Of a stretch of 64,000 bases of DNA, positions 1,621 to 49,822 are shown one piece after another (position 1 is the first letter of the stretch; every line of letters starts with the position of its first letter). The DNA is taken from the IMG/VR virus record IMGVR_UViG_3300034022_000539. One strand, written 5' to 3'. Source of the DNA: a virus. Lineage: Duplodnaviria; Heunggongvirae; Uroviricota; Caudoviricetes. Made by a program: the position numbers and the translations under genes. The notes below the pieces were generated by a model that saw nothing but the letters and a program-made list of their open reading frames with translations, was not told the origin of the DNA and did no database searches.

Positions 1621-1657
1621 TTTCAAAGTGATCTGGGTAGTCTGGGGTCCTTGCACG

Positions 1658-1673
1658 AAATGTTCGTAACTTT
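1658..1673 (+). promoter_or_regulatory. upstream box AAATGTTCGTAACTTT (TTGTTCGTAAC family), ~60 bp upstream of the -7 element
   Basis: This 11-mer occurs 9 times in the window, always at the head of a terminator/promoter module. Confidence 0.5.
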
Positions 1674-1716
1674 ACTAAAAATAAGTGCTTAAATATTTTT
1701 TTATTTGGATTATTAT

Positions 1717-12326: not shown

Positions 12327-13208
12327 TTATATATCATAATCTTCTATTGTTTCAGGACGAGTCCATCTTCTAAGATCACCTATCCAATCTTCTAATCTAT
12401 AAGGGTGTTCCCAATATGGTGGTTTAGGTATGGTTAGTTTAGGTACTTTTAATCTATCACCATCTCTGGCTTCTAACCATTTGGTTTTCTTTTTAAGCTT
12501 TTTTACTATTTGTAGTAGAGTTACTTTGTCTTCAGAGTGCAGCGCCCATTCACCATTAATAGGTAAAAGATCATGACGAGTACATGCTAATGCAATTGAT
12601 TCTACTCTTGTAAAGATTCTTATTTGAGTTCCAGGTTCAACGATAGTTATTGCTTGTTGATTCTTGATTTGATTTTCCCATATACCTAAGACAGTTGCGT
12701 ATGCACCTTCTGTAATTTGTCCAGGTCCATATGCATTAAAGAAATAAAATATGTGTGATTTAAGATTGCTCCATTTTTGGTGCTTTTTAATAAGATCTAC
12801 ATTTTGTTTTTTGTACCAACTATATGGTGAAAGATCTTGATCTTTTTGTCCAAAATGTGATGAAGATGCTGAATAAATTAGGATTGCATTTTGATTTATA
12901 GCTAATCTTATAATTTGACTAGTTCCTTCAACACATGAAGATTGCACCTTTTCTATTTCTTGATATGATTGATGTATACGAGAATATTCTCCAAAGTGGT
13001 AGATTTTATCAATCTCAAATCTTTCTAGTAATCGAAGAGCATCTTGAGTTCTACCTTCTATATACTGTACACCTTGAATATGATTAGATTTTAGGCCAGT
13101 AGAATAATCATCTAGTGAAACTATTTTTGTATGCGGTTTCTCAGTAAGCAATGACTTAATAAGATGTGTTCCGATGAATCCTGCTCCTCCTGTTACTAAT
13201 GTATACAT
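12327..13208 (-). CDS. NAD(P)-dependent sugar epimerase/dehydratase (SDR, Rossmann TGGAGFIGTHL), 293 aa
   Basis: Has the N-terminal GxxGxxG Rossmann motif typical of UDP/GDP-sugar epimerases/dehydratases. It is first in an operon of glycan genes. Confidence 0.75.
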   Translation of the reverse strand: MYTLVTGGAGFIGTHLIKSLLTEKPHTKIVSLDDYSTGLKSNHIQGVQYIEGRTQDALRLLERFEIDKIYHFGEYSRIHQSYQEIEKVQSSCVEGTSQIIRLAINQNAILIYSASSSHFGQKDQDLSPYSWYKKQNVDLIKKHQKWSNLKSHIFYFFNAYGPGQITEGAYATVLGIWENQIKNQQAITIVEPGTQIRIFTRVESIALACTRHDLLPINGEWALHSEDKVTLLQIVKKLKKKTKWLEARDGDRLKVPKLTIPKPPYWEHPYRLEDWIGDLRRWTRPETIEDYDI

Positions 13209-13215
13209 ATTTTAA

Positions 13216-13992
13216 TTATTTAGTTCCTAGCCAACTGTAATATTCTCTCCATCCATGCTTGACTAATGTAAATTGTTTAGGATCTCTTAAATATGTTAGA
13301 TCAAAAATCTTTTCATCGCTTCCAATAAAATTCCTATCTAAGCAAAAACCTATTGTCTTATTTATCTCATTCATGTACCAATCTATTTTCCATGCTGGAC
13401 AAACGAATGCTCCACCTTGTATATGTCTTTGTTGTGAAAGAGTGTGCCATTCTGGATCTGGTATTGCAAAATCTAAATTGTGTGTAAAATGCATTATAGT
13501 ATCCATTGATAGTTTTTCTATATTAGGCCAAGTTTCTGGATAATCCATATCTTCTCTAATACCACCTGCATCTACCCATATTAAATGAGTTGCGTCTTTA
13601 TGTAATTTAAGTGCTTCATTTAAAAAGAAGATCTTATTGAACATTACTATATTATATAAAGGATAATTCATTTCAGGTACATGATCCCAATGTCTTTTCT
13701 TTAAAAATTCATCATCATGCATAACTTGATCTATTTTAGTGAACCAAGTCTTGTATGCTTCTAAATCTTCTATTGAGTTTATTACGTATGTGGTCATTTC
13801 TCCAGTTGGATCTACTTCAGATCTCATCTGTCTAATTCTTTCTTCGAACTTAGATTCTGTAAAAACCACCATATTAGCCCTAAGACTAAGTGCTCTTTGC
13901 ATCCAATGTAAATATGTGTGATATGATTGTGCGAAATCTTTCCATTCAGATCTACCAATATCATAAAGTGCCGTAATAACTAATGGTTTCAT
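13216..13992 (-). CDS. hypothetical protein in glycan cluster (258 aa)
   Basis: A long ORF tightly packed in the operon. No motif was recognised. Confidence 0.55.
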   Translation of the reverse strand: MKPLVITALYDIGRSEWKDFAQSYHTYLHWMQRALSLRANMVVFTESKFEERIRQMRSEVDPTGEMTTYVINSIEDLEAYKTWFTKIDQVMHDDEFLKKRHWDHVPEMNYPLYNIVMFNKIFFLNEALKLHKDATHLIWVDAGGIREDMDYPETWPNIEKLSMDTIMHFTHNLDFAIPDPEWHTLSQQRHIQGGAFVCPAWKIDWYMNEINKTIGFCLDRNFIGSDEKIFDLTYLRDPKQFTLVKHGWREYYSWLGTK

Positions 13993-14005
13993 TGCTAAAT
14001 TTTAT

Positions 14006-14740
14006 TTATATCCAAGACCACTCTACTCTAATGCCCTTATGTTTAATATGTATCTTATCTACATCAAAATGATTTGATCTACTTTGATTATTAAAAATAG
14101 TGTCAAGTGTAAATCCGTCTTTATTTAATATAGTTGGCACAAATCCTTCAGAATATCCATGTACACCATTTAGTAATAAATCTGTTATGTGACGTAGACT
14201 TTTATTTGAGAATCTAACAATTGGAAAGAATGATCCAAATAATTCACCATTTTTATTGATTTGGTCACCATCACCTGGAAATCTATCAAACCATAATGTA
14301 TTACTGTATGTGTTAGCATCAATTTCGGGAATGTTAGGTTGACTAGTCACTCCTTTGTTCTTAAATATGTAATAAGAAATAAAATCAGTATTGTTATTTT
14401 CAAATGCTTTAAAGAATTCTGACCAATTATCACATACTAAGTCATCATCCATAAACCAATACCAATCTTCATTGGGATTAAGCATATAATAATATGCCAT
14501 TCTAAGATGTGCATAGAACCAAATAATATTTCTATTACCTTGTTGATTCCACCAATGTAATTTACTAACATCACTTCTAAAATTAAAAAGATCTCTTACT
14601 TTTTGTTCATCATATTCTATTCCAATAGGTGCTCTATCAGATAAAAATTCAAAGTCAAAATCTACAGTTTTCCAATACGATTCATATGATTTAAATGTAT
14701 TAGCACATGTACATACTATTGTTTTAGACATATTGTTCAA
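14006..14740 (-). CDS. hypothetical protein in glycan cluster (244 aa), possible glycosyltransferase
   Basis: Operon context only. Confidence 0.5.
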   Translation of the reverse strand: MNNMSKTIVCTCANTFKSYESYWKTVDFDFEFLSDRAPIGIEYDEQKVRDLFNFRSDVSKLHWWNQQGNRNIIWFYAHLRMAYYYMLNPNEDWYWFMDDDLVCDNWSEFFKAFENNNTDFISYYIFKNKGVTSQPNIPEIDANTYSNTLWFDRFPGDGDQINKNGELFGSFFPIVRFSNKSLRHITDLLLNGVHGYSEGFVPTILNKDGFTLDTIFNNQSRSNHFDVDKIHIKHKGIRVEWSWI

Positions 14741-15545
14741 TTATTTTTTCATTCCATTCAGGAATTCTATTATATTGATGTGCAATTTTGTACACTATGT
14801 TGTTTGAGTCAATCAAAACATTTTCTTGTAATTTAGGTAAACCATATTTTTTATCAATAGCTTTTCCTAAACCCCATTCTATATGTTGAAACGTAGGACC
14901 TGATAATGAACAGTGAACTACCCAACCTTCATTAGGTTTAAAGATTTTACAATTATCAATTAAGTTCTTATAAATTAAAATATTAAATGCAGCTTGATCC
15001 CTTATATCATGGCCTTTTAATGAACCATCTACTAAGTGTTGTTGCATTCTTAATGTTTTTACTAATGAATCTTTTTTACCACACATTACTCCACTACAAA
15101 CCACCTCATATTGTCTAATAAAATCTACATATTCTGGAAATGCTTTATTCATAACATCCATATTCCAAGGCTCTTCATTATGTAATACACCTTCTGATCC
15201 AGCAAAGAAATCATATTTGTCTAGTTCTAACATTTCAAATGGATCTGCTTGAAAGCAAACGTCAAATACATCGGTTACCATAAATAAATCATAAGGACTA
15301 TTCTCTATCCAATTTGCAGTATGAATTAATCTACTATCATTAATTGTTAATCCTGGATCTGATTCAATAGCATGGAATTTAATTCCATTTAGATTTAAAA
15401 CATTTCTATCTTGAGCATTCATATCAGCTCCAATAAGTACTACTTCACCGTCTTTTACATGTTTTTTAAAACTATTAGCCCAAACCCTAATTTTATCGAT
15501 ATTATTGGTTACATTGTTGCTAACTCCTGTTAATACTTTTTTCAT
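14724..15545 (-). CDS. hypothetical protein in glycan cluster (273 aa), possible GT-A glycosyltransferase (DVFD)
   Basis: Operon context. Has a DxD-like motif MVTDVFD. Confidence 0.5.
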   Translation of the reverse strand: MKKVLTGVSNNVTNNIDKIRVWANSFKKHVKDGEVVLIGADMNAQDRNVLNLNGIKFHAIESDPGLTINDSRLIHTANWIENSPYDLFMVTDVFDVCFQADPFEMLELDKYDFFAGSEGVLHNEEPWNMDVMNKAFPEYVDFIRQYEVVCSGVMCGKKDSLVKTLRMQQHLVDGSLKGHDIRDQAAFNILIYKNLIDNCKIFKPNEGWVVHCSLSGPTFQHIEWGLGKAIDKKYGLPKLQENVLIDSNNIVYKIAHQYNRIPEWNEKIIEQYV

Positions 15546-15546
15546 T

Positions 15547-16179
15547 TTAACAATTATGTAATTTATGTGTCAACATTTCATTTACACCAAATATTGTAGG
15601 CCAACTATACTCTAGTGCCCATATTTGTGGATCGTTTCCATGTGCTCCTCCAGAAAATGAAGAAGTTGATATATTTTTTGCTATACTTTCCATTAGTTTT
15701 ACGTAAAAATCTAATGATCTTTTCTTAATTTGATCTTTCTTTACAATACATTGCATACCACCTATAAACATAAATGGCAATTTATATTCAATTTCCATTT
15801 TTTCACAGTAATCAATAGCTTGCTTAATACAACCATCATTATCTCTGATATAAGTTGGTCCAATTGGATAAAATGGTTTTGTAAAATCACAATCATTGAT
15901 AAATTCTACACAAGTTTCACAATCATGTTCGAATGGATTTCCTTGTAAGAATATTGTGTAATCAGCTAAATTGTACCAATTTGTTACAATATGATGTAGG
16001 TGTGTATGCGCATCTTTACCATAATTTAACAGATTTCTTTCAAATAAATGATTATCTGCTGCATTTTTATTGTAAATAGTTACTTTATACTTAAGTTTTT
16101 TTGTCCAAGATACATCTTCATTGTATTTAGCAACAACTGCTTCTATTGTCATAAAACTCTTTCTATTTTTGTACACCAA
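15547..16179 (-). CDS. hypothetical protein in glycan cluster (210 aa)
   Basis: Operon context. Confidence 0.5.
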   Translation of the reverse strand: MVYKNRKSFMTIEAVVAKYNEDVSWTKKLKYKVTIYNKNAADNHLFERNLLNYGKDAHTHLHHIVTNWYNLADYTIFLQGNPFEHDCETCVEFINDCDFTKPFYPIGPTYIRDNDGCIKQAIDYCEKMEIEYKLPFMFIGGMQCIVKKDQIKKRSLDFYVKLMESIAKNISTSSFSGGAHGNDPQIWALEYSWPTIFGVNEMLTHKLHNC

Positions 16180-17396
16180 CCTTTTGATGCGCTATGTGGC
16201 CAAACAATCCACTTATATGGTTTTGGTCCTTGCAAGTCTACATGAATGTGTATCCAATCACCAGGTTGTTGTAATTTCTGAGAAATCTCATGGTCGTTTA
16301 AATCCTTTCTATAAACTGAAGTACCATCTTCTGATTCCATAATCACTGCACAAAAAGTGTAGTCTGTTTCAGTAAGCACAGATCTATGCACATCTATAAT
16401 GTGTTTGAATATATGATGAAAACTATTATCATAATCTTCTACATGAGGATTAGGTGCAAGTTTATTAGATGTGGTCCATTGTTGTACTGCACGATCTCTA
16501 AGTCTAATACCTGCGTATCTTTCCCAATCTGCAATAGTTCTAACTCTACCTAATCCATATTTACCATAAATATCTTCTTCTGAATCAAATGACTCTCCAT
16601 CAATTCCTAATAGTTTACGAGTTTTTTCATGAGTTCTTGTGTTTCTCTTACCCCATTCTGAATCATCATCCCATTGTTTAGTTCTACCTTTACGAGTATA
16701 TTCATGCCACGCAATAATTTTATGTGGATGGAATAAATCATATCCGTGTGTAAATGCTCTAACTGCAATAGTAATCTCTTCACCATGAAAATAGAATTCT
16801 GGATCATGTTGTACCTCTATTGCAAATTGACCTACTGTAAATGCGAAGTGTGCTGAATAAAATCTTGAAGGAATTGGTTCTGTCATATTTTCCCATCCTG
16901 GAATTGTAGCAGGTAAAAAGAATATTACACCTTCTGGAGTAAATCTATCAAAATTCATTAACCATGGTGCTTGAGTTCTGCCCTTTGGATCGATTTCTGG
17001 ATTATATGATGAAATATAGCTTGTAAGTAATGGTTTAGCATGACCTTTAGCTTGTAAACCCCTTAGCATATTAATCAATTCAGTGTCCCAGTTTCTAATA
17101 AACCTATGATGACTATCTAATTGAAATGTATAAGTTTCACCTTGATAAAGTTGTTGAATGCTATTTCGTGCCCAACATGCTCCAGTTGAATCTTTATAAT
17201 TTACATCTAAAATTCTAAATCGCGAATCGTTTTTATATTGATCTAATGTATCCCATGTATCTTCTTCGGAATGTTGCCAACATATACCAAATCTAAGACG
17301 ATCTGGAAATTCAGCGTTTAGTAAACAATCCTTAAGAGTATTCAATAACTCTGGATCTCTGTAACTTGCAATTTGAATAAATATGGTTTCTTCCAT
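16149..17396 (-). CDS. putative glycosyltransferase (415 aa; QIASYRDPELLNTL...FGICWQHSEED...)
   Basis: The N-terminal region is a GT-like fold. It is the first gene after the promoter at 17408-17432. Confidence 0.5.
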   Translation of the reverse strand: MEETIFIQIASYRDPELLNTLKDCLLNAEFPDRLRFGICWQHSEEDTWDTLDQYKNDSRFRILDVNYKDSTGACWARNSIQQLYQGETYTFQLDSHHRFIRNWDTELINMLRGLQAKGHAKPLLTSYISSYNPEIDPKGRTQAPWLMNFDRFTPEGVIFFLPATIPGWENMTEPIPSRFYSAHFAFTVGQFAIEVQHDPEFYFHGEEITIAVRAFTHGYDLFHPHKIIAWHEYTRKGRTKQWDDDSEWGKRNTRTHEKTRKLLGIDGESFDSEEDIYGKYGLGRVRTIADWERYAGIRLRDRAVQQWTTSNKLAPNPHVEDYDNSFHHIFKHIIDVHRSVLTETDYTFCAVIMESEDGTSVYRKDLNDHEISQKLQQPGDWIHIHVDLQGPKPYKWIVWPHSASKGWCTKIERVL

Positions 17397-36170: not shown

Positions 36171-36192
36171 TTCATAAAAGTTGCGAACAATT
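36171..36192 (-). promoter_or_regulatory. TTGTTCGCAAC upstream box (variant of TTGTTCGTAAC) + TTTTATGAA
   Basis: Same module order as on the plus strand. Confidence 0.45.
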
Positions 36193-39100: not shown

Positions 39101-39770
39101 TAAAATCTTGATTCTTTTGTGATTCAGCACTTACTACAGCTAATAAACCAACTTTAGATTTAGGTACCTTTAATTCGATGATTGCTTTTTGTTTAGCATC
39201 CCAAAGATCTTTACCTTCTACTTCGATTTTCTTGTTATTAAAGAATGCAAAGAATAAAGTTTCGTTAACCTTATTTGCTTCTAAAGACTCTTTAATACTT
39301 AAGTCTTTTAAACTTCTAACAGGTACACCTTTTGTTTCACCATCTTCTGGATTTGAAAATGCTAATAAACCTGCAGCAATTAATCTCTTATAAAGCTCGG
39401 TTTTAACTAATTCAAAATCAATAGAGTCTGATGAATTTTCCCAAGTATCTGCTACATATTCTGGATCAATCCAACCAATACCTCTCTTGATACTGGTTTC
39501 CATATCCTTGTAATCCGTTTCGAATTGCTTGATCTTTCCTTCATTGATCTCTGCATTTGCAAGAGATAATGATTTCATGGCTGATAATTTATCAGTAAAA
39601 AATACTAAAGCCTCATTTAAAGACAAAGGTTCTTTGATATTTTTTGTAAGCGTTTCAGCTTTTATAGAGCTTTTAGTCTCTGACTTTAATAAAGCTATTT
39701 TAACCGCTTCAGCAGTATAGCTTGCTCCAGTCGTAACTTCTTTATTATTGAAATTAATAAATGATGACAT
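36192..39770 (-). CDS. large acidic protein (1192 aa) with three near-identical internal repeats EGNAFGAARAKAIADGAKEFEFEGETYKVED (nt ~36470-36895)
   Basis: Long ORF. Nucleotide-level near-identity between repeat copies suggests recent duplication. Confidence 0.75.
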   Translation of the reverse strand: MSSFINFNNKEVTTGASYTAEAVKIALLKSETKSSIKAETLTKNIKEPLSLNEALVFFTDKLSAMKSLSLANAEINEGKIKQFETDYKDMETSIKRGIGWIDPEYVADTWENSSDSIDFELVKTELYKRLIAAGLLAFSNPEDGETKGVPVRSLKDLSIKESLEANKVNETLFFAFFNNKKIEVEGKDLWDAKQKAIIELKVPKSKVGLLAVVSAESQKNQDFKFESFVGESEVITVEVDMAWDDLDKEEDKAAKAAFKKYKIKVEPMSLGRGSQDIRQEGTFEVTGKKKDILAYLKSDFYEMDQETIEEYYPELLESSKKPAGLTLDDTKKVAELYASALSKADGVKATVNKKSLEEDSFDLDVDGEEYAGGSYNIYHNGEVVNHAVPGSPVYGYFDDKLDTIVKNIKNPKLHESAMSDIDIMAQEAKDFKSFVKEFKKEHHDLSSAGEPGQFEAWLQTIYDTAKENMDESVVNEGQFSWMAQDTGNQIGSEKQNTITITMFDDKGNKWEEKKYDGYGEFGGKDYYELLAQMNGIENPNRQDGIDIAFDKKKVSGKVLFPALVEDPKRFNFKKHDFTQEAEHDPNQSWYQEEEYDDDYEEYDESKVTEAARVPSNVLDFAKRKGSYATSLVKKAATWAEKAGKYISGGTAIGKDYMTIILDMKHQGSEIYINLNDETIELFGEEVTDAKSFQKVLDANMSESKVNESAADLIKYVETASEKTFKGGGNGQNLLDNAMELASHIGDYEMGRPTRGYEEDGFYGPATITLFKRLVDQMSADDIKNNQADKYESKVTESHFKVGDKVKMSHGGTGVIVSLDKEDGAEDEKYYNVELPNGEMHKHAPNELTKESVVIEGISVTDERVYGKKGIIIMIDDNGKQVSAIFKDKKNADKYNRNKAEDIKALLDLAKDTKYPNAIDESVVNEGRSINKIQKEWSETTTKMQQKAGEWKVAEGDRKSELLDEMKALTAKKRELEAELDAAVAGKDKDLELVVSEGNAFGAARAKAIADGAKEFEFEGETYKVEDVGADDKENAKEFVEEGNAFLAARAKAIEEDAEEFEFNGKTFPVIEEGNAFGAARAKAIADGAKEFEFEGETYKVEDAGPDDKKNAKEFVEESKLTLDALVEMFEVKVNEDLRSDVKKFIKDNANELNTLADKDEWDLMYTKLYNEFNVEANSTKGKDLLKTFQFVF

Positions 39771-40609: not shown

Positions 40610-41356
40610 TTAAATGTTTTTTAGATTTTCTACCATCCAATCCAATTCTACTTGACTAGCTGCATCTGAGATGGCATTATCAGGATCTGGATGTGTTTCA
40701 ATAAATACTCCATCATACTCAAAAATACGTGCAGCTAAAGAATATTGCTTTGCAAGTTTTCTACTTCCACCTGTAATACCATCACCTGACATTTGAGTTG
40801 AGTGCGTACAATCAAAGATAACTTTATCTGCAAATTGTTTCATTACATCAACTCCTCTGAAATCTACAATTAACCTATCAAAACCAAATTGAGTACCACG
40901 TTCAGTAATCCATACTTGACATGTTGGATTTACTTCTTTAATCTTGGTAACAGCATGTTTCATTGCATCAGCAGATAACCACTGACCCTTCTTAACGTTG
41001 ATAATATTAAAGTGTTTTGCACATTCTATAAGAAGATCTGTTTGTCTACATAAGAATGCTGGAATTTGAATCACATCTACTACATCTGATAATGGTAATG
41101 CTTGATCTGCTGTGTGAATATCTGTAACGATTTTAAGACCTGGAAATTTAGCTTTGACATTTCGCATAATCTCGATACCTTCGTCTAAACCCGGACCTCG
41201 ATTAGAATGAATTGAAGTTCGATTGGCTTTATCAAAGCTACCTTTAAGATACCAATCTTTTCCTTGCATTATAGGATATAGTGCATTTGCTACTTCTGTG
41301 AAGTTGTCCTCGCTTTCAATGCTACAAGGACCTAAAATATATGTGTAATTTTCCAT
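40610..41356 (-). CDS. kdsA: 3-deoxy-D-manno-octulosonate 8-phosphate (KDO8P) synthase, 248 aa
   Basis: The whole length aligns by eye with bacterial KdsA: GPCSIES, KGSFDKANRTSIHSNRGPGLDEG, VVDVIQIPAFLCRQTDL, INVKKGQ, FDCTHSTQ, FIETHPDP. These are the DAHP/KDO8P-synthase family active-site blocks. Confidence 0.9.
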   Translation of the reverse strand: MENYTYILGPCSIESEDNFTEVANALYPIMQGKDWYLKGSFDKANRTSIHSNRGPGLDEGIEIMRNVKAKFPGLKIVTDIHTADQALPLSDVVDVIQIPAFLCRQTDLLIECAKHFNIINVKKGQWLSADAMKHAVTKIKEVNPTCQVWITERGTQFGFDRLIVDFRGVDVMKQFADKVIFDCTHSTQMSGDGITGGSRKLAKQYSLAARIFEYDGVFIETHPDPDNAISDAASQVELDWMVENLKNI

Positions 41357-41387: not shown

Positions 41388-41555
41388 TTATTTTTTGCGT
41401 AACATCATTTCAATGATTGGTCCATGAGATTGGTAAACCGCTAAATGTTGACCATTTAGCCTTTCACCTTTCTTAAGAGATTCTACCATTGATTTGAAAA
41501 AATGCATTGGAACCTCACCTTTGTCTACATAATGTTGCCACTCTTGAGGATTCAT
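41388..41555 (-). CDS. small protein (55 aa; MNPQEWQHYVDKGEVPMHFF...) not in ORF track
   Basis: The open frame starts 3 nt after the upstream stop and fills the otherwise empty 200-bp gap before kdsA. Confidence 0.35.
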   Translation of the reverse strand: MNPQEWQHYVDKGEVPMHFFKSMVESLKKGERLNGQHLAVYQSHGPIIEMMLRKK

Positions 41556-41558
41556 CAA

Positions 41559-43100
41559 TTACTTAATTACTTTTATTCCCATATTAGCATTAAATGGGTT
41601 AGGCATACTTCCTTTTTGTTCAAATTGAAAGTTAGCTGATTTAAATGGTATTGTTTTAAATATAAGAGTTCCTTTGTTTACAGAAACATCTAAATATAAT
41701 TGTTTTACATCTGTTACCATTCTTCCAAATTTAGATAATTCATTAGAATACGTATTAGTTAATAATGTAGCTATTTCAACCATTAAAGCATAAAATACTA
41801 TTCCAATTTTGTTTTTACCCATTGTAGGATATGACTTTATCATCTCATTTAATTTAGCTTTATTCCATTGCATTTTACTCAAATCCCATAATTTAGATAT
41901 GAAATTGCTAAATTCATCTACATTAGAATCGTATAATATATCTAGAAAACTAACAACAGCATCTTGAGTTAGCATCGAGGGATCTAATTTAGATTCTGAA
42001 CAAAGAAGCCAATATCCTGAATTTGAATGATCTTTTATATTAACATTACACAAATTCATTATATTGTCATAAGTACCACTTCTAGCTAATTTAGGAGGAT
42101 TAACCCACTGCTCTACAACATTAGTAAGGAAATCTGATTCTAGTGCAGTTTCTGCTTGTATTAAAGAATCTTGTTTGGCTTGGTATATTTTTTGAATTAT
42201 AGTATCTCCACTCGGTGTTCCTCCTTTTCCGCCTTTTGAAGAAATAGAATATCCGCTAAAATAAAAATCTACTAATTTTTCATTAGATGATTTTGGATAA
42301 GATAATCCCACACCATATGATTGAAGTATATTAAAAAACATAAAGCCTCCTAATATTTCTCCGTAATCATTTTGGAAATGTTGGATTGAAATAGGATCAA
42401 TACCCTCAAATATATTATTGTCAACACTATAAGATATGTCATGTACTCCAGCTGCTAAATAAGCATCAAAATCTTTAAATTTATTTTTATTTGATGAATT
42501 ATTCATAATAGATTCAGTTACTGTAATAAAACATTTTTTATAGTTTTCTGGTAAACTGCTATTAGATATAGCCGGAGAGACAACTGCAAATAAACTTTCA
42601 GCTGATTGATATATGTTTTTTGTTATACCTAGATTATCAGGTGTAAGATCTTTTCTACCAACAACACCCTGCTCTCCTTTTTTATTAACTTTAAATCTAT
42701 TGGTAATTGTTATAAAGTCTCCTTTTTTATAATCTTTACCTAAAGCATCTGATACTTTAGTATTGAAAATTATTGTATATCCTGCGAAATCACTAGAAAC
42801 AATTCCTTGTTGTTTAAATTCTATACTATAAGACGATGGATCAATACCACCTACTTCTTTAAGAAATTCTATAATTTTAGTTTCTGCCGTTCCGTCATTT
42901 GCGCCGAAATTTGCTCTTAACACTTCACCTGTTCCACTTATTCTACTGGAAACACCAGCAAAATCTTTAGAATTCATAAACTTTTTAAAACCTTCTAGCC
43001 AAAACTCTTCAATTGCTTTTTTAGTTGGTTGTTTTGATTCATGAATAGCTTTATCCATTGCTATTTGAAAATTATTTCTAATGTCTTTAAATGTACTCAT
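41559..43100 (-). CDS. hypothetical protein (513 aa)
   Basis: Long ORF. No motif was recognised. Confidence 0.65.
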   Translation of the reverse strand: MSTFKDIRNNFQIAMDKAIHESKQPTKKAIEEFWLEGFKKFMNSKDFAGVSSRISGTGEVLRANFGANDGTAETKIIEFLKEVGGIDPSSYSIEFKQQGIVSSDFAGYTIIFNTKVSDALGKDYKKGDFITITNRFKVNKKGEQGVVGRKDLTPDNLGITKNIYQSAESLFAVVSPAISNSSLPENYKKCFITVTESIMNNSSNKNKFKDFDAYLAAGVHDISYSVDNNIFEGIDPISIQHFQNDYGEILGGFMFFNILQSYGVGLSYPKSSNEKLVDFYFSGYSISSKGGKGGTPSGDTIIQKIYQAKQDSLIQAETALESDFLTNVVEQWVNPPKLARSGTYDNIMNLCNVNIKDHSNSGYWLLCSESKLDPSMLTQDAVVSFLDILYDSNVDEFSNFISKLWDLSKMQWNKAKLNEMIKSYPTMGKNKIGIVFYALMVEIATLLTNTYSNELSKFGRMVTDVKQLYLDVSVNKGTLIFKTIPFKSANFQFEQKGSMPNPFNANMGIKVIK

Positions 43101-43102: not shown

Positions 43103-43702
43103 TTATTTGTATGCTCTAATTGTTGATATTTGTATTCCTTCATGTTCTTGTTCTAATGATTTTACTAATACTAAATTAGCCTCATCATCATCGTAAAATT
43201 GTAGGTCACTGTAACCCATATCGATCAATTCTCTAAACGCTTGTTTTTTACGATCCGATATACTACCTTTGAATTTATGTACTGAATCATTCACTGCAAA
43301 AATAAGATCTTTGTCGATTCTAAATCCAACATGTTCTCTTAACCATCTATAAATCATTTCTCTATCATCTCTTGCTGTAACAATTCCAACTGCGATGCGT
43401 GATTTATAAGCTTCTTTAAATATGTCTAAGTAATGTTCAATCATTTGACCAGCTTTCATAATCTCTAATGATTTAAATTCATCAAAGTTTAATTCATGAT
43501 CTGCATGTTTTTCATAACTATTAAATTCTTCTGGAGTCAGTGAATAACATTCTCCTGTTTTCTTATTGCAAACCTTTATTTTTGCTGATGAAATTACTAA
43601 AGTATCGTCAAGATCAAACACAAGAATCTTGGAACCATGATATGGTTTTCCAGCTCTGTTTACCTCATTTAGGTATTCTGTGTAATTTTTAACGTGTTTC
43701 AT
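43103..43702 (-). CDS. leader-family HAD-superfamily phosphatase (199 aa; MKHVKNYTEYLNEV...LVFDLDDTLV)
   Basis: A divergent leader is followed by HAD motif I DxDxT (FDLDDTL) and a later T-A-R-D motif. Confidence 0.7.
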   Translation of the reverse strand: MKHVKNYTEYLNEVNRAGKPYHGSKILVFDLDDTLVISSAKIKVCNKKTGECYSLTPEEFNSYEKHADHELNFDEFKSLEIMKAGQMIEHYLDIFKEAYKSRIAVGIVTARDDREMIYRWLREHVGFRIDKDLIFAVNDSVHKFKGSISDRKKQAFRELIDMGYSDLQFYDDDEANLVLVKSLEQEHEGIQISTIRAYK

Positions 43703-43996: not shown

Positions 43997-44288
43997 CTTT
44001 TGGTATTTCTTTTTCTATTTCTAGAGTCCATAGTCTATTATTAGGTACTACGAATTTTCTTTCATGTCCAAAAACATAAAAAGTTGTTTTGTATATATTT
44101 TGTCTAACTATTCTAGCTTTCTTTGCGCCTTTAATATAAACTATATCATCTACATTAAAATCATTGCCCCATAAAAACTGCATACCAATAACAAGATTAG
44201 CAATCATGTCTTTGAATGTAAATGAAATTATAGCTACTGCTGTCACCCAACCCCATTCTGATATGTATTGTCCTATTAACTCTTTCAT
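43965..44288 (-). CDS. small membrane protein (107 aa)
   Basis: ORF with an N-terminal hydrophobic helix. Its end overlaps the start of the next gene. Confidence 0.5.
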   Translation of the reverse strand: MKELIGQYISEWGWVTAVAIISFTFKDMIANLVIGMQFLWGNDFNVDDIVYIKGAKKARIVRQNIYKTTFYVFGHERKFVVPNNRLWTLEIEKEIPKDETPENFPII

Positions 44289-44773
44289 ATTAGTCCCATT
44301 GCACTTAAATTTTGTAGAACCACTTGTTGACTTAACATTATAACTTGTGAAGCTTCTATTTTGTCCATAAATTTGGCATTATCAATTTCTTCACGCTGTA
44401 ATTGCCCTTTAGGTACCACTAGATCTTTAAGTCCTATTTTAGACAGGTCATCTATTTCAACTATAAAATAATAAATAACTTTATTATACTTATACTTTCT
44501 AGAAGTTAAAACAAATGTACGTTCAATTTTACTTATTAAAGATTTAGGAACTTTAATACCGAACTCTTCATAAGTTTCTCTGATAGCAGCATCTAAATGT
44601 GATTCACCTTCTTCGATGCCACCTTTAGATATACCATAACCAGTTCCTTCTTTTCTACCTCTAGATTGACCTAACAAAATTTTACCATCAAACACAATCG
44701 CAAGACCAGCTGAATATCTAGTGTCTAGATATTTCTCGTTGATAAATTGATCATATTTTTTTAGGTGTTTCAT
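44285..44773 (-). CDS. leader-family NUDIX hydrolase (162 aa; MKHLKKYDQFINEKY...)
   Basis: Has an intact Nudix box GGIEEGESHLDAAIRETYEEFGI (Gx5Ex7REUxEExGU). Confidence 0.8.
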   Translation of the reverse strand: MKHLKKYDQFINEKYLDTRYSAGLAIVFDGKILLGQSRGRKEGTGYGISKGGIEEGESHLDAAIRETYEEFGIKVPKSLISKIERTFVLTSRKYKYNKVIYYFIVEIDDLSKIGLKDLVVPKGQLQREEIDNAKFMDKIEASQVIMLSQQVVLQNLSAMGLI

Positions 44774-45136: not shown

Positions 45137-45742
45137 CTAATTGATTTTATATTCAATCCAGTCATGTCCAGTTGAGTTAATGTTTGGAAAATAAAATTCA
45201 AATTTATTATTATTAACTCTAATTATTTTTGTAAATCCTATTGGTACTAATGCTCCAGTACTTAACCAATTTTGAGGTTTATCTAGAAAATGTACTCTAA
45301 TTTCTATAGTTACATTTGAAAATACTTTTGATAAATCCTTTTCAAAATGTTCTAGTTCTTTCCATGGTCCTCTATTTAATGATTCATGTTGTAATGCACA
45401 ATTTAAATAAGAGAATGTATTTCGTAAATTAGTTATATTACATGTAAATGCACCAGCAGGTGCCATATGACCTTTGTCCCATATATTATCAACATAGTCA
45501 TCATCGTCACTTGTTACAACACCTGTCCATTTCTTAAATGACATACCATCTCTTTCTTCATCACCAGTTGGGCATTGAACTTTATATTTAATAACCAAAG
45601 GTTGTTGAAATCTTTGAGAATATTCAATTTCAAATATACTCGTTTTGATTTTAACATTTGCAAGACCTGTTTGTGCATTTGCACTTGTAATTAACAATAA
45701 TGTTAGGAACGTTATTGCAATTATGTTTTTTATTTGTTTCAT
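45137..45742 (-). CDS. secreted DNA/RNA non-specific endonuclease (Serratia nuclease/EndoG family), 201 aa with Sec signal peptide
   Basis: Has an N-terminal signal MKQIKNIIAITFLTLLLITSANAQ and the active-site motif DKGHMAPAG (D-R/K-G-H-x-A-P). Confidence 0.7.
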   Translation of the reverse strand: MKQIKNIIAITFLTLLLITSANAQTGLANVKIKTSIFEIEYSQRFQQPLVIKYKVQCPTGDEERDGMSFKKWTGVVTSDDDDYVDNIWDKGHMAPAGAFTCNITNLRNTFSYLNCALQHESLNRGPWKELEHFEKDLSKVFSNVTIEIRVHFLDKPQNWLSTGALVPIGFTKIIRVNNNKFEFYFPNINSTGHDWIEYKIN

Positions 45743-46626
45743 TTAATTGATTTTATCCAGGATAATAGGTTTGTTTCTGGTTTCCAACCTAATTGCCTAG
45801 TGATTTTTGTAATATCTGCAGCGGAACGCATAGGTTCCTCTCTTTTTTCTACATGTTTGATTTCACCACCAAATGCCTCAGCCACTTCAATAACTTGAGT
45901 TTCTGTACCAGATCCAACATTATAAATTGGCATAGTGGTCTTAAATTCGGCCTGACTACTCATTATAATAGCATTTACCACATCTTTAACATAAATCCAA
46001 TCTCTAGTTTGTGTGCCATCACCAGTTACGGTAATAGGTTGATAAGATTCATATTGTTGTAAGAATATGGGCACTGCACTTCGGTATCCACCAGTAGCCC
46101 TTTGACCTTCACCAAAGACATTAAAAAATCTTAGAGCTGTACACTTAAACTGAGGTTTATTATAACTCATCATCATGTGTTCCATTTCCAATTTAAATTC
46201 GGCATAAGGACTCATCGGATTAGGTGTATCACTCTCTTTTAATGGCACTTGTTCTGAATCACCATAGACCGCAGCAGTGGATGCAGCTACCATTGAAGTA
46301 GCTCCCATTTCATAAGCCCAACTCATAACTCTTCTACTTGCAACACATATGCCATTCCAATATTTCATTGGTTGTTCTATGCTTTCAGGTACACTAATCG
46401 GTGCAGCTAAATGAAATAGAGTATCAAATTTATAAGTTGGCAATTTACTACTAATAATATCAGTAGCTTCAATAATTAAATTTGGATGTGGTTCTAAATT
46501 GTCCATGTCACCAGTACTAAAATTATCAAGTACAATTACTGACCATCCATTGTTTAGTAATTCTTTAACCAGATATGAACCAATAAAACCAGCTCCACCT
46601 GTAACTACAGCTTTTCTATTCTCCAT
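45739..46626 (-). CDS. NAD-dependent sugar epimerase/dehydratase (GalE/WcaG-like), 295 aa
   Basis: Has VVTGGAGFIGSYLV Rossmann motif and an SDR-type fold. Confidence 0.75.
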   Translation of the reverse strand: MENRKAVVTGGAGFIGSYLVKELLNNGWSVIVLDNFSTGDMDNLEPHPNLIIEATDIISSKLPTYKFDTLFHLAAPISVPESIEQPMKYWNGICVASRRVMSWAYEMGATSMVAASTAAVYGDSEQVPLKESDTPNPMSPYAEFKLEMEHMMMSYNKPQFKCTALRFFNVFGEGQRATGGYRSAVPIFLQQYESYQPITVTGDGTQTRDWIYVKDVVNAIIMSSQAEFKTTMPIYNVGSGTETQVIEVAEAFGGEIKHVEKREEPMRSAADITKITRQLGWKPETNLLSWIKSIK

Positions 46627-49600
46627 ATAATTCTTTATTTATGACAGCAATAACTCTGTCTGATCCAATGGTTTTAGTACACTCAAATTGACGATGTGTT
46701 CCTTTCCATAAAGGGCACCAATTCCAGTCACCTTTGTCAAATGTATCCCAACCCCAACAACCATGACATACTTTATGATTGTTAATATAGATAGCTGATT
46801 CAAATTCCACATAAGGATCTGTAAAGCCACTAATAACAATTACTTTGGCTCCAAGTGCCCATGCGAACCAAGATAAGCCAGAGGAAATTCCAATAAACAG
46901 TTCGGCTTCATTAATAGCTCCTGCTACTAATGCCAACTCTTCTGGCAATTGTTTAACTCCTTTTAATTGACTACCTTCTTTACTAGCATGGTACACACTA
47001 ATCTCTTTACTATTACACCAGTCAATTGTTTCTTGCCATCCAGTAGGATTATTCCAGTACTTAGCTTGCGCTGTACTTTGGGTAGCGATTACAATAGAGC
47101 GTTTTTTTGCAGTAGACTTGATCAAGAATTCGCGCGCTAGTTGAGGTCTTTGTTCTACGTACTCAGTACCTAAGCGATCTGAGGCGATTTTCCCCAGAGG
47201 TATAGTCCTCCAGTCGTATTTATGTTCTGAACGTTTCCATGGTTCTTCCATGGTGTAAAAGACTCCGATAGTGATTAGCGCACCCTTGTTAGGCACTGAC
47301 CAGTCAATGATGTCTATGCCCTTTGAGCTATACCATGCTTTGTCAAACAGCCAGGGTTTGTGTGTCTTCACATATAATCGTGATAGCTTATGTGTGTCTA
47401 TCACTGTGTGCAGCTGTCCCATGAAGCTCAATGTGTCTCCAAGTGATGAACTTGCCATTTCCACTGTAAGTTCCTGGCCTTCAAGGCTCAGACGTTCTGA
47501 ATGAACTAGTTGGTCATTACTGTAAACCTTAACAGTCCACTGAGTCCACCAATTTCTTGCGGGCTTGTACCAGTTTCCTGCCTGTAAGTCTGTTGCGTTC
47601 CATACTAGATCTTCATGATCGTAGAACTCGGCCCGTAATTGAGTGCCTCCAGTTTCCTTGATCGTTAATTTCGGACCATCTTGATATTCTAATGTCCATT
47701 CAGGTTGTTTGTATATCGGAGCTTTTTGAGGGCCTCGTGGGGTAGTTAAACATTGTTGGTACCATTGGATATGCTGATCAGTGAAACGTTTTAGATCATC
47801 AGCTGGGATATTTTTTCCTTGTGCCTCGGATGATTTGAGTGTTTTGATTAATTGGTCAACATTTTCATGGAGATCGTTTGTGAATGGGACAATGTAAGGT
47901 GTAAACATGTCTTTATATTGCTCTAAGTCCCTAGAGAATGTGATTAGACCATGACCGATTGCTTCACGTAGTGCGAGTGGACTACACTCCCATGTTGAGT
48001 TAAACATAAATGCGTCACATGCACTCATAAAGACGTCAACATCGTTTCTCTCACCCCATACAGTAACATTACTTGGCAACTTCTTCATAATTGGTCCCCA
48101 ATATTGTTCGAAGTTTTCTGCTTGATTACCTACGAAATGAAATTGATACTTTCCAGGAAATCTAGCTTCAACTATTCTGGCAATATCAACACCTTCTGCT
48201 TGATTCTTACCTTGTGTCCAAAGACCTACATTTAATATATGTGTCTTATCAATGGCTAAACCTAATTTAGCTCTTGATTTTGCTTTATCAAACGCTGAAG
48301 GTTTTTGATTTAATATAGGATATTCTACAACTGGTTTTAAACCATCTCTATTTCCGAAAGTTTCTAAATGATATGGAGTACACATCATGTACATATCTGG
48401 ATCATTAATCTTATCGTTTGGATCAAACCAAATATTGTGAGATGTTTCTACAATTTTCCATTGCTTATTGTAAAGCCATTCCATTGCACTTTGATCAATT
48501 TTATTAAATCCATCAAATGATTCTGGACATTCATCAATATGAATAATATCTGGGTTTATTTCTAAAATCTTTGCCTTTAATCTTTCACCTCGTTCGGTAA
48601 TGTCTATTGAATTTAAGAATCCTAATGAATGAAATCTAGCACCTAATTTTTCTATAAGTTGATCTCGTTGCACATTGTAAATATCACTATATTGTGTATA
48701 CTCTACTAAGTGAATTTCATATTCTTTTACATCTAACATAGCTTCGACTCTCTTTAAGACAAATTGAGGCATGCCTCCTGTACTTAAATGTGGTGCTAAG
48801 AATAGTAATTTAGTTTTGTTTGTCATTTCTTTGGTATTAGGTTTCATATAGACATTGTCTACTAATAAGTCATTATACAAATCTATAACTGCATCGAATG
48901 TTTTATCTACTGTAGGATGACACTCGAATGTTGGTTTATATTCTAAACAATATAATTGTGGCGGAACAGCTTGAATAGTTCCATGTTCAATAATATTGTA
49001 TTTCATATTACTGGAACAGAAAATATCGCAACTTCCACCAATATATTTGTATTTATAATCTTGTGAACCCTTTCTATAAGGTGCTCTTAATTTTGGATCT
49101 ATTGAACTACCTAATTGAATAATATTTACGTCAGTAGTTCCTGCAATGTGCAATAAACCAGAATCCATAGTTACTATAGCTCTAGCTTTATGATTCATCA
49201 TCCATCTTAATTCAGCTGGATCATTTGTTGCATCATTAAGTAAGTTAACTCCAAGCTTTATATTCAAATCCATTACGGGTTTGTCTATTGAGAATGTACC
49301 GAATTCATGAGAATCTCGGCCAACCGCAACCACTGGAATACCTCTATCATTTAATTTATCAACAAGTTCTTGCCATTTATCTTGATCCCATGTTCTAGTT
49401 GCCCAGGTATAAGTTGGGTGTATTATAACATAGTTTTCAAATCCAAGATTTCTTTCACGTTCAATATACAAATCCATTTCCATTTCATCTTGAGTTAAAC
49501 TAAACCCTAATGAAACTGCATGAAATTGTCTAATATCCATATTAGAAGATCTGAATTCTACTTGTTCACCTCTTAGATCATATGCTTTGCCAACGATTGG

Positions 49601-49822
49601 CATAAATGTACGATAAACCTTTATGTCGGAGTCATATCTAAGAGGGTCATCCAACTTTAATGCTTTTGACACAAGTGGATGACCCTCAAATAAGAAAGGT
49701 TTACTAGAAAATACTATAAGTTGTGACTCACACGCTTTAGCTAACTTCCTAAGTGTAGGAATTGCTGCTATCGTGTCACCTAATGCAGGTGTATCTATAC
49801 ATATCGCAACTTGTTTTGACAT
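46616..49822 (-). CDS. three-module glycosyltransferase, 1068 aa: GT9 (heptosyltransferase-like) / GT4-like (E-x7-E) / GT9
   Basis: The N-module has LGDTIAAIPTLRKL (GT9 N-motif). The middle has WECSPLALREAIGHGL (the GT4 retaining-GT E-x7-E motif). The C-module has SLGDTLSFMGQL and GISSGLSWFAWALGAKVIVISGFTDP (GT9 C-motif). Confidence 0.75.
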   Translation of the reverse strand: MSKQVAICIDTPALGDTIAAIPTLRKLAKACESQLIVFSSKPFLFEGHPLVSKALKLDDPLRYDSDIKVYRTFMPIVGKAYDLRGEQVEFRSSNMDIRQFHAVSLGFSLTQDEMEMDLYIERERNLGFENYVIIHPTYTWATRTWDQDKWQELVDKLNDRGIPVVAVGRDSHEFGTFSIDKPVMDLNIKLGVNLLNDATNDPAELRWMMNHKARAIVTMDSGLLHIAGTTDVNIIQLGSSIDPKLRAPYRKGSQDYKYKYIGGSCDIFCSSNMKYNIIEHGTIQAVPPQLYCLEYKPTFECHPTVDKTFDAVIDLYNDLLVDNVYMKPNTKEMTNKTKLLFLAPHLSTGGMPQFVLKRVEAMLDVKEYEIHLVEYTQYSDIYNVQRDQLIEKLGARFHSLGFLNSIDITERGERLKAKILEINPDIIHIDECPESFDGFNKIDQSAMEWLYNKQWKIVETSHNIWFDPNDKINDPDMYMMCTPYHLETFGNRDGLKPVVEYPILNQKPSAFDKAKSRAKLGLAIDKTHILNVGLWTQGKNQAEGVDIARIVEARFPGKYQFHFVGNQAENFEQYWGPIMKKLPSNVTVWGERNDVDVFMSACDAFMFNSTWECSPLALREAIGHGLITFSRDLEQYKDMFTPYIVPFTNDLHENVDQLIKTLKSSEAQGKNIPADDLKRFTDQHIQWYQQCLTTPRGPQKAPIYKQPEWTLEYQDGPKLTIKETGGTQLRAEFYDHEDLVWNATDLQAGNWYKPARNWWTQWTVKVYSNDQLVHSERLSLEGQELTVEMASSSLGDTLSFMGQLHTVIDTHKLSRLYVKTHKPWLFDKAWYSSKGIDIIDWSVPNKGALITIGVFYTMEEPWKRSEHKYDWRTIPLGKIASDRLGTEYVEQRPQLAREFLIKSTAKKRSIVIATQSTAQAKYWNNPTGWQETIDWCNSKEISVYHASKEGSQLKGVKQLPEELALVAGAINEAELFIGISSGLSWFAWALGAKVIVISGFTDPYVEFESAIYINNHKVCHGCWGWDTFDKGDWNWCPLWKGTHRQFECTKTIGSDRVIAVINKELYGE

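What the first reader, a model, noticed from the sequence alone, without database searches (positions are those of the whole stretch)
40610..41356. Phage-encoded KDO-8-phosphate synthase (kdsA)
The protein is near full-length and motif-for-motif similar to bacterial KdsA. KDO is the signature sugar of the LPS inner core and of some capsules. The gene lies 5 kb from a giant GT9/GT4/GT9 glycosyltransferase and a GalE-like epimerase, and 24 kb from a second epimerase+GT operon. This suggests the phage builds or remodels a KDO-containing glycan. Candidate roles are modification of host LPS (receptor masking or superinfection exclusion), support of LPS-precursor supply during infection, or glycosylation of its own fibre proteins.
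Basis: partly seen in the sequence, partly recalled or inferred. Interest (0 to 1): 0.7.

Follow-up and report, generated by a model that had tools for sequence, protein, structure and literature searches.

The report
Phage-encoded KDO-8-phosphate synthase gene
A large marine phage, probably infecting Flavobacteria-type bacteria, carries an intact gene for the enzyme that commits sugar phosphate to Kdo, and the same genome encodes the steps before and after it, so the phage can make activated Kdo itself; virus-borne Kdo genes have been reported before, so this is a solid but unsurprising find.

Summary
The ORF at 40610-41356 (minus strand, 248 aa) is a real, full-length KDO-8-phosphate synthase of the metal-dependent class. 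It passes the NCBIfam equivalog cutoff. It keeps the Cys-His-Glu-Asp metal site, the KANR(T/S) motif and the PEP-binding residues. Its predicted fold matches only solved KDO8P synthases. The gene belongs to a virus-specific clade (79-99% identity among hundreds of marine metagenome proteins, at most about 54% to anything else, 39-46% to Flavobacteriales). The clade is under strong purifying selection (dN/dS about 0.1) and occurs in at least three unrelated phage genome contexts, so it is not a recent host passenger. The window is part of a roughly 261-kb phage genome with Bacteroidota-type translation signals. The window itself holds no kdsB, kdsC, kdsD or waaA. However, 3.3-4.6 kb left of the window, on a contig 100% identical to it, lies an operon with an arabinose-5-phosphate isomerase and a CMP-Kdo synthetase. 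The phage therefore encodes three of the four steps to CMP-Kdo. No Kdo transferase was found, so the acceptor is unknown. Phage and giant-virus Kdo genes are already described, which makes this a new member of a known kind.

The parts
40610..41356 (-). kdsA: KDO-8-phosphate synthase, metal-dependent class, 248 aa
   Evidence: NF003543 scores 288 bits against a cutoff of 242. Metal ligands Cys11/His185/Glu220/Asp231, the KANRT motif at 43-47, and Lys38/Lys43/Lys122/Arg153 are conserved. Foldseek top hits are all KDO8PS. dN/dS is 0.08-0.12.
41388..41558 (-). Small ORF (56 aa) directly upstream of kdsA; function unknown
   Evidence: It sits next to kdsA in the window-type relatives L001-L004 and L032-L035, and its sequence is 65% identical in the two relatives compared, L001 and L002. 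No family match.
43103..43702 (-). HAD-superfamily phosphatase-like protein (199 aa); possible but unproven Kdo8P phosphatase
44285..44773 (-). NUDIX hydrolase (162 aa) genetically linked to kdsA across phage lineages
   Evidence: Pfam NUDIX at 1e-12. A 53-59% identical homologue overlaps the kdsA stop codon by 4 nt in the second phage lineage. Substrate unknown.
45739..46626 (-). GalE-like SDR sugar-nucleotide epimerase (295 aa)
   Evidence: Pfam Epimerase at 7.7e-51. The best NCBIfam hit is GalE at 174.8 bits, below its cutoff of 262.
46616..49822 (-). Three-domain glycosyltransferase (1068 aa): N-terminal GT9, central GT4, C-terminal Aah/TibC-type O-heptosyltransferase
   Evidence: Pfam Glyco_transf_9 and Glycos_transf_1. 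TIGR04414 scores 208 bits against a cutoff of 200 over residues 730-1063. Synteny with kdsA is conserved in relatives.
12327..17396 (-). Second glycan island: SDR epimerase, HtrL/YibB-like, two weak GT-A-like ORFs, DUF3431, GT60-type 'GlcNAc' transferase
   Evidence: The GT-A hints for 14006-15545 are below threshold.

Best explanation
The ORF encodes an active, metal-dependent KDO-8-phosphate synthase that condenses arabinose-5-phosphate with phosphoenolpyruvate. It works with two other phage genes about 44 kb away in the same roughly 261-kb genome: a single-SIS-domain arabinose-5-phosphate isomerase and a KdsB-type CMP-Kdo synthetase. Together they give the phage its own route: ribulose-5-P to A5P, to Kdo8P, to Kdo, to CMP-Kdo. 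The dephosphorylation step would be done by the host KdsC or an unspecific phosphatase, possibly the phage HAD protein. The route would operate during infection of a marine Bacteroidota (Flavobacteriia-like) host. The extra CMP-Kdo most likely feeds a glycoconjugate made under phage control by the many phage glycosyltransferases, either a modified cell-envelope glycan or a glycosylated phage protein. Shown here: enzyme identity and intact active site, selection, phage origin, and presence of kdsD-like and kdsB genes. Inferred: activity, co-operation of the three genes, and host group. Not resolved: the acceptor of Kdo.
For: Purifying selection: dN/dS is 0.08-0.12 over 13 distinct coding sequences. 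The clade is virus-specific and far from cellular genes. kdsA keeps its position in window-type relatives. The same genome carries TS-like/SIS/KdsB genes packed with a 3-nt gap and a 1-nt overlap, on a contig 100% identical to the window over 12.7 kb. The SIS-KdsB pair is conserved in related phages. In the more distant relative L051 it ends a glycosyltransferase island with GT2, GT25, GT90-like and Maf/MptE-like genes, and L054 has the same layout. Other viruses carry the same module: LR756500.1 has a kdsA-kdsB-SIS operon, S-SCSM2R has kdsA and kdsB, and giant-virus MAGs have the cluster too. Host inference rests on five points: 0 of 71 genes have a Shine-Dalgarno core and upstream regions are A-rich; a window protein has an SprB repeat; the isomerase is closest to a Bacteroides enzyme; a T9SS sorting domain occurs in the second lineage; and one relative was binned with Flavobacteriales.
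Against: No Kdo transferase (GT30 WaaA, GT99 or GT107) was found, neither in the window ORFs scanned against Pfam/NCBIfam (nearly all of those of at least 120 aa) nor in the precomputed Pfam labels of the flank genes, about 82 kb in all; the tblastn with E. coli WaaA covered the window and close relatives but not the left flank. About 180 kb of the genome could not be read. No clear KdsC was found. kdsA sits among small and hypervariable genes rather than in a tight operon with a glycosyltransferase. The nearest glycosyltransferase is of the heptosyl type. A Gram-negative host already makes CMP-Kdo. There are no expression or biochemical data.
Confidence: 0.6

Rival explanations
1. Pure maintenance gene. 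The phage Kdo enzymes only keep the host's own Kdo2-lipid A / LPS or capsule synthesis running through the host WaaA after host gene expression is shut down. No phage-specific glycan is made.
For: No phage Kdo transferase was found in about 82 kb examined. In the second lineage kdsA overlaps the end of the ribonucleotide reductase large-subunit gene, which suggests expression with early or middle metabolic genes. LPS genes in marine phages are usually read this way in the literature (PMC5332604; PMC12801897).
Against: In relatives the SIS-KdsB pair is embedded in islands of variable glycosyltransferases. The window genome carries at least two glycan islands of its own. This points to a phage-built product rather than plain maintenance.
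Confidence: 0.25
2. DNA hypermodification. CMP-Kdo is used by a phage DNA glycosyltransferase to attach Kdo to a hydroxymethylated pyrimidine in phage DNA, protecting it from host nucleases.
For: A phage DNA glycosyltransferase that yields a product assigned as Kdo-5hmC in E. coli has been reported (bioRxiv 10.1101/2023.12.21.572611). Phage arabinose-5-P isomerases serve DNA arabinosylation in RB69-type phages (PMC13326640). Here the isomerase and kdsB follow a 371-aa thymidylate-synthase homologue in one operon, and the genome has a second TS gene. In the second lineage kdsA lies 9 kb from a C5 DNA methylase next to HAD, kinase-like, nucleotidyltransferase and 420-aa unknown genes.
Against: The 371-aa protein keeps all thymidylate-synthase motifs, including the dUMP-specific Asn, and is closest to long-form bacterial TS. 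TS adjacency is lost in the more distant relatives L051 and L054. No TET/5mYOX, dCMP hydroxymethylase or T4-like DNA glucosyltransferase was seen in the window or flanks.
Confidence: 0.09
3. The enzyme has a different specificity, for example DAHP synthase or another ulosonic-acid phosphate synthase, or it is an inert passenger gene.
For: The score for the older TIGR01362 KDO8P model is below its cutoff (272 against 314). The clade sits on a long branch.
Against: The KANR(T/S) motif is present in all 28 sequences compared. From my own knowledge, DAHP synthases carry KPR(S/T) at this position. All A5P, PEP and metal ligands are conserved. DAHP-synthase models score at most 82 bits. dN/dS of about 0.1 excludes decay. 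The genome co-encodes an A5P isomerase and KdsB.
Confidence: 0.04

Closest known systems
Bacterial metal-dependent KDO8P synthase (KdsA of Aquifex aeolicus and Helicobacter pylori; PDB 1fwn, 4z1a)
   Same: The fold is the same, with 49% identity to the Aquifex enzyme. The Cys-His-Glu-Asp metal site, the KANR(S/T) motif and the PEP-binding Lys/Arg residues are shared.
   Different: It is shorter (248 aa) than the bacterial enzymes compared (267-284 aa for Aquifex and E. coli; 270-272 aa for the Flavobacteriales genes). It is encoded by a phage. It forms a separate long-branched clade, at most about 54% identical to any other cluster.
kdsA/kdsB reported in other phages: Synechococcus phage S-SCSM2R, Tara Oceans viral genome TARA_ERS478052_N000008, and the 462-kb uncultured phage LR756500.1
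   Same: These are phage-borne Kdo pathway genes in large marine or environmental phage genomes rich in glycosyltransferases. All have the Cys (metal-dependent) form.
   Different: KdsA identity to them is only 40-42%. In those phages kdsA and kdsB are adjacent, and LR756500.1 also has the isomerase in the same operon. Here kdsA lies about 44 kb from the isomerase-kdsB operon. The host group differs (Bacteroidota-type signals rather than cyanobacteria).
Predicted Kdo pathway of giant viruses (CroV crov265-267, Fadolivirus)
   Same: A virus encodes isomerase, synthase and cytidylyltransferase for Kdo, and neither the activity nor the acceptor glycan is known (PMC9614988). Giant-virus MAGs show the same three genes clustered.
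   Different: Giant-virus KdsA has Asn instead of Cys (the metal-independent type) and is often fused to other domains. Their hosts are eukaryotes lacking Kdo, so the pathway is obligatory there, whereas a Gram-negative host already has it.
Phage DNA glycosyltransferase clusters that place Kdo or heptose on 5-hydroxymethylcytosine (bioRxiv 10.1101/2023.12.21.572611)
   Same: Phage use of LPS-core sugars for its own macromolecule. The accessory HAD, kinase and nucleotidyltransferase genes resemble those near kdsA in the second lineage.
   Different: No methyltransferase, dioxygenase or DNA-glycosyltransferase trio was found in the window genome. This is a resemblance only, not tested.

Membership tests
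KDO-8-phosphate synthase (KdsA, EC 2.5.1.55) | Sequence scores above the curated family threshold and better than sister DAHP synthases | tested here: met
   NF003543 scores 288 bits against a cutoff of 242, and DAHPS models score at most 82 bits. One older model, TIGR01362, is below its cutoff (272 against 314).
KDO-8-phosphate synthase (KdsA, EC 2.5.1.55) | (beta/alpha)8-barrel fold of type I-beta DAHPS/KDO8PS | tested here: met
   AF2 model has pLDDT 77.7 and pTM 0.80. The top 50 PDB matches are all KDO8PS, with TM 0.75-0.80.
KDO-8-phosphate synthase (KdsA, EC 2.5.1.55) | KANR(S/T) arabinose-5-P phosphate-binding motif | tested here: met
   KANRT is at residues 43-47, and K43, A44, N45 and R46 are invariant in the alignment. 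That DAHP synthases carry KPR(S/T) at this position is my own knowledge and was not tested here.
KDO-8-phosphate synthase (KdsA, EC 2.5.1.55) | PEP-binding Lys/Arg residues and the QIPAF loop | tested here: met
   K38, K43, K122, R153, Q97, P99 and A100 are invariant in A1.
Metal-dependent subclass of KDO8PS | Cys-His-Glu-Asp metal ligands (Aquifex C11, H185, E222, D233) instead of Asn at the first position | tested here: met
   C11, H185, E220 and D231 are present. E. coli and giant-virus enzymes have Asn at the first position.
KDO-8-phosphate synthase (KdsA, EC 2.5.1.55) | Catalytic activity A5P + PEP to Kdo8P + Pi; complementation of kdsA | not testable with these tools
   Requires an enzyme assay or genetic complementation.
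Complete CMP-Kdo pathway | Arabinose-5-P isomerase (KdsD/API) | tested here: met
   A 198-aa SIS protein lies at L050 3809-4405 (PDB 3etn at 1.1e-76, 2xhz at 2e-33). It is on a contig 100% identical to the window and lies 3.3-3.9 kb outside the window.
Complete CMP-Kdo pathway | CMP-Kdo synthetase (KdsB) | tested here: met
   A 232-aa protein lies at L050 3111-3809. Its 13 best PDB hits are all KdsB, the top one at E 3.9e-43; weaker hits below them are NeuA-type cytidylyltransferases. Pfam CTP_transf_3.
Complete CMP-Kdo pathway | Kdo8P phosphatase (KdsC) | tested here: inconclusive
Phage-directed Kdo glycan synthesis | A Kdo transferase (GT30 WaaA, GT99/GT107 beta-Kdo transferases, or another CMP-sugar transferase) | tested here: not met
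   None was found in the window or in the two flanks of about 10 kb and 7.7 kb. The flanks were covered only by their precomputed Pfam labels.
Recent host-derived passenger gene | Near-identity to a cellular gene and relaxed selection | tested here: not met
   The best GTDB genome hit is 46%. The best other 50% cluster is about 54%. dN/dS is 0.08-0.12.

The most novel reading that the evidence does not exclude
The phage makes its own CMP-Kdo to decorate its own macromolecules rather than host LPS. One option is O-glycosylation of virion or secreted phage proteins, which would fit the TibC/Aah-type transferase next door and the Maf-like transferases in the Kdo islands of relatives. The other is attachment of Kdo to modified bases in phage DNA. 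Either would be the first natural case of a bacterial virus using the LPS-core sugar Kdo as a building block of the virus itself.
Probability: 0.3. Interest if true: 0.7.

Novelty: new member of a known kind. Interest (0 to 1): 0.4.

Why it matters
Kdo is the conserved sugar linking lipid A to the rest of LPS and is also found in some capsules. A widespread, strongly conserved viral clade of KdsA was found here, carried by at least three unrelated marine phage lineages. In this genome it comes with the phage's own isomerase and CMP-Kdo synthetase. This says that control of the Kdo supply is a recurrent need of large phages of marine, probably Bacteroidota, hosts. Identifying the acceptor (envelope glycan, phage protein or DNA) would show whether these phages remodel the host surface or glycosylate themselves. 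None of the predicted viral Kdo pathways, including that of CroV, has yet been validated. The compact 248-aa enzyme is an easy target for that first biochemical test.

Tried and rejected
1. A near-DNA search of 38-44 kb against 50,697 phage records gave no match, so this is not a known isolate.

2. A search for kdsB, kdsC, kdsD and waaA inside the window found nothing. It used Pfam/NCBIfam on nearly all ORFs of at least 120 aa, and tblastn with the E. coli proteins and the S-SCSM2R KdsB. The genes turned up only after walking 10 kb to the left on the source contig.

4. I considered the giant GT9 protein as an LPS inner-core heptosyltransferase acting on Kdo. Its C-terminal domain instead passes the Aah/TibC protein O-heptosyltransferase model.

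5. I considered the 371-aa thymidylate-synthase homologue as a pyrimidine hydroxymethylase. It looks like a long-form TS with a dUMP-type Asn, so there is no positive evidence.

6. A Maf-like transferase was not found on any IMG/VR contig that carries this kdsA clade, including the 165-kb contig with a 98% identical kdsA.

7. Sigma-70 promoter and terminator scans around kdsA were not above chance.

8. The Rfam scan of the window found only tRNA-Ala.

9. The idea of a eukaryotic giant virus was rejected on the peptidoglycan hydrolases, the phage exonuclease and the Bacteroidota-type start regions.

Full report
OBSERVATION. The ORF at 40610-41356 (minus strand, ATG start, 248 aa) is present exactly as described.

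It matches Pfam DAHP_synth_1 at E 2.8e-51. It scores 288 bits on the NCBIfam equivalog NF003543 for 3-deoxy-8-phosphooctulonate synthase, whose cutoff is 242. DAHP-synthase models reach at most 82 bits. The older TIGR01362 model scores 272 bits, below its cutoff of 314.

Against all PDB sequences, the 40 best hits are KDO8P synthases, led by Aquifex aeolicus (1fwn, E 2e-64). DAHP synthases follow at about 1e-15.

In an alignment with the Aquifex, E. coli, phage and metagenomic enzymes, it is 49% identical to the Aquifex protein and 42% to E. coli KdsA. It keeps every column I checked:
- the metal ligands Cys11, His185, Glu220 and Asp231 (Aquifex C11/H185/E222/D233);
- the KANRT motif at 43-47;
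- Lys38, Lys43, Lys122 and Arg153;
- the QIPAF loop.

The Cys at the first ligand position puts it in the metal-dependent class. E. coli and the giant-virus enzymes have Asn there.

An AlphaFold model (pLDDT 77.7, pTM 0.80) has only KDO8P synthases among its 50 best PDB matches, with TM 0.75-0.80. The protein is complete and simply compact.

WHAT GENOME THIS IS. The window has about 31% G+C and is almost entirely transcribed on the minus strand from 8 kb onwards.

It encodes these phage-type proteins:
- an Amidase_2/PG_binding_1 endolysin-like protein and a glucosaminidase;
- a 1294-aa collagen-like tail-fibre protein;
- a PD-(D/E)XK exonuclease of phrog_298;
- a Band-7 protein and a metallophosphoesterase.

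The exact KdsA sequence occurs on 11 public contigs, the longest 260,917 bp. Loci fetched from that contig are 100% identical to the window. A 279-bp discrepancy in offsets points to a length difference, probably in the collagen-like repeat gene.

Close relatives are on IMG/VR viral contigs. The nearest deposited record is the 462-kb 'uncultured phage' LR756500.1. It shares KdsA, the exonuclease, the HAD-like protein and three further genes.

None of 71 genes has a Shine-Dalgarno core at -18 to -5, against about 6% expected for random 14-mers. The upstream regions are 50-65% A and 4-10% G. From my own knowledge, this is the Bacteroidota style of translation initiation.

Four further clues point to a marine Flavobacteriia-like host:
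- an SprB repeat;
- an isomerase closest to a Bacteroides fragilis enzyme;
- a T9SS Por_Secre_tail protein in the second lineage;
- a relative binned with a Flavobacteriales MAG.

The host assignment is inferred, not shown.

NOT A HOST PASSENGER. The large protein database returns hundreds of marine homologues at 79-99% identity.

An exhaustive scan of 1.84 billion cluster representatives finds nothing else above about 54% identity. The single exception is a 141-aa fragment at 76%. Named neighbours are Arenicellales (46%) and Limisalsivibrio (45%).

A scan of 185,579 species genomes gives at best 46% (Maribacter, Croceitalea). That scan depends on shared short peptides.

In a neighbour-joining tree the viral sequences form one tight, long-branched clade. 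It is not nested in the Flavobacteriaceae.

Pairwise dN/dS among 13 distinct coding sequences is 0.08-0.12, with dS up to 1.36 in comparisons with the window gene.

The clade sits in at least three unrelated genomic contexts:
- The window type, with conserved order: GT / epimerase / endonuclease / NUDIX / HAD / hypervariable ORF / 56-aa ORF / kdsA.
- A second lineage of 140-215-kb phages. There kdsA overlaps the end of the ribonucleotide-reductase large subunit. It is followed by a NUDIX gene, a bacillosamine-like set (dehydratase, acetyltransferase, aminotransferase), GT2, HAD, a kinase-like protein, a nucleotidyltransferase, an epimerase and a C5 DNA methylase.
- A third context, L030.

The gene is therefore a long-established, mobile phage gene.

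THE REST OF THE PATHWAY. Pfam or NCBIfam scans of nearly all window ORFs of at least 120 aa found no KdsB, KdsC, KdsD or WaaA. A tblastn search with the E. coli proteins found none either.

Walking 10 kb left on the source contig found three tightly packed minus-strand genes:
- a 371-aa thymidylate-synthase homologue;
- a 198-aa single-SIS protein, matching B. fragilis arabinose-5-P isomerase 3etn at E 1.1e-76 and E. coli KdsD 2xhz at 2e-33;
- a 232-aa protein whose 13 best PDB hits are all CMP-Kdo synthetases, led by 3oam at E 3.9e-43.

They lie 3.3-4.6 kb before window position 1, about 44 kb from kdsA.

The SIS-KdsB pair is conserved in related phages (L051-L054, 60-83% identity). In the more distant relatives L051 and L054 it closes an island of variable ORFs that begins with a conserved Maf/MptE-like protein. 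The L051 island was scanned and holds GT90-like, GT2, GT25 and acetyltransferase genes. The Maf/MptE-like and GT90-like hits are below Pfam's cutoff.

LR756500.1 has kdsA, kdsB and a 408-aa protein with a C-terminal isomerase domain in one operon. Giant-virus MAGs also carry the three genes together.

The phage thus encodes three of the four steps to CMP-Kdo.

WHAT THE KDO IS FOR. This could not be settled. No Kdo transferase was found in the roughly 82 kb I could read.

The neighbouring 1068-aa glycosyltransferase has a C-terminal domain that passes the model for Aah/TibC autotransporter O-heptosyltransferases (208 bits against a cutoff of 200). It speaks for protein glycosylation rather than LPS inner-core synthesis, and it does not obviously use Kdo.

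My ranking is as follows:
- Supply of CMP-Kdo for a glycoconjugate assembled by phage transferases, either an envelope glycan or a phage protein. Glycosyltransferase islands surround the pathway genes here and in relatives.
- Simple maintenance of host LPS or capsule synthesis.
- DNA hypermodification. This has precedent: a phage DNA glycosyltransferase giving a product assigned as Kdo-5hmC, and phage arabinose-5-P isomerases used for DNA arabinosylation. It is hinted at by the TS-homologue/isomerase/kdsB operon and by the methylase-linked cluster of the second lineage. However, the TS homologue looks like an ordinary long-form dUMP-type enzyme, and its adjacency is not conserved.

COMPARISON AND NOVELTY. 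Phage-borne kdsA was reported in a Tara Oceans viral genome in 2017 (PMC5332604). kdsA and kdsB were reported in Synechococcus phage S-SCSM2R in 2025 (PMC12801897). A full predicted Kdo pathway is known in CroV and Fadolivirus, none of it validated (PMC9614988).

The present gene is a new member of that known kind. This analysis adds four points:
- It belongs to a large, virus-specific, strongly conserved clade shared by unrelated marine phage lineages.
- It is of the metal-dependent type, unlike the giant-virus enzymes.
- The genome supplies the isomerase and the cytidylyltransferase from a separate locus.
- The likely host group is Bacteroidota.

Interest is moderate. It would rise if the Kdo proves to end up on the phage's own proteins or DNA.

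Noticed in passing
L050 3111-5524 (same contig, 2.1-4.6 kb left of window position 1): There is an operon of a 371-aa long-form thymidylate-synthase homologue, an arabinose-5-P isomerase and KdsB. A second, 282-aa thymidylate-synthase gene lies further left. Why the genome has two TS genes, and why one is coupled to Kdo genes, is unexplained.
   Followed up: partly
window 46616-49822: The C-terminal third (residues 730-1063) of the 1068-aa glycosyltransferase passes the NCBIfam model for Aah/TibC autotransporter O-heptosyltransferases. This suggests phage-encoded protein O-glycosylation. No ADP-heptose pathway genes are in the window, although relatives L001 and L002 carry a 134-aa cytidylyltransferase-like gene nearby.
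   Followed up: partly
window 44285-44773 and L041/L042/L044 10744-11229: A NUDIX hydrolase travels with kdsA. It lies 3 kb away here, and in a second, otherwise unrelated phage lineage it overlaps the kdsA stop codon by 4 nt (53-59% identity). Its substrate and its relation to Kdo synthesis are unknown.
   Followed up: partly
window, all 71 ORFs of at least 80 aa: No gene has a Shine-Dalgarno core upstream. The start regions are A-rich and G-poor, which fits a Bacteroidota host.
   Followed up: yes
window 1-1700: This stretch is gene-poor and lies between divergent operons. Local G+C reaches 0.53-0.55 against a 0.31 average. It has GGAAGCTCCTGG-type direct repeats at 1436-1553 and a 34-nt inverted repeat at 1470-1570. 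There is no Rfam match. It could be an origin, a promoter hub or an unknown RNA.
   Followed up: partly
window 36192-39770: This 1192-aa highly charged protein has three near-identical modules of about 33 aa (EGNAF(G/L)AARAKAI..EFEF.G.T..VE) and recurring ESKV(T/N)E / ESVVNEG motifs. It is highly variable in length among relatives (about 670-850 aa) and has no family match.
   Followed up: no
window 41559-43100: The 513-aa ORF just upstream of kdsA is hypervariable. It is 27% identical in L025, split in L001 and replaced by an unrelated 648-aa ORF in L002, while its neighbours stay 65-90% identical.
   Followed up: no
L047 (10 kb right of the window): This flank holds NAD-salvage and nucleotide genes (NAMPT, a phosphoribosyltransferase-like protein, a nucleoside 2-deoxyribosyltransferase-like protein, a GATase) and a GT32-type glycosyltransferase.
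   Followed up: no
L041-L046, L027-L031 (second phage lineage): These are 140-215-kb marine phages. They carry a sigma-70-like factor, a SET-domain protein, Nei glycosylase and an Hc1 histone-like protein. They also carry a bacillosamine-like sugar cluster plus HAD, kinase-like and nucleotidyltransferase genes next to a C5 DNA methylase. The arrangement resembles published DNA-glycosylation clusters.
   Followed up: partly
window 20234-24118 versus contig k141_203066: Coordinate offsets between the window and the otherwise 100% identical contig differ by 279 bp between 12.7 and 30.6 kb. This probably reflects a length difference in the collagen-like repeat gene. A 790-aa ORF on the opposite strand (20628-23000) is most likely a repeat artefact.
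   Followed up: no
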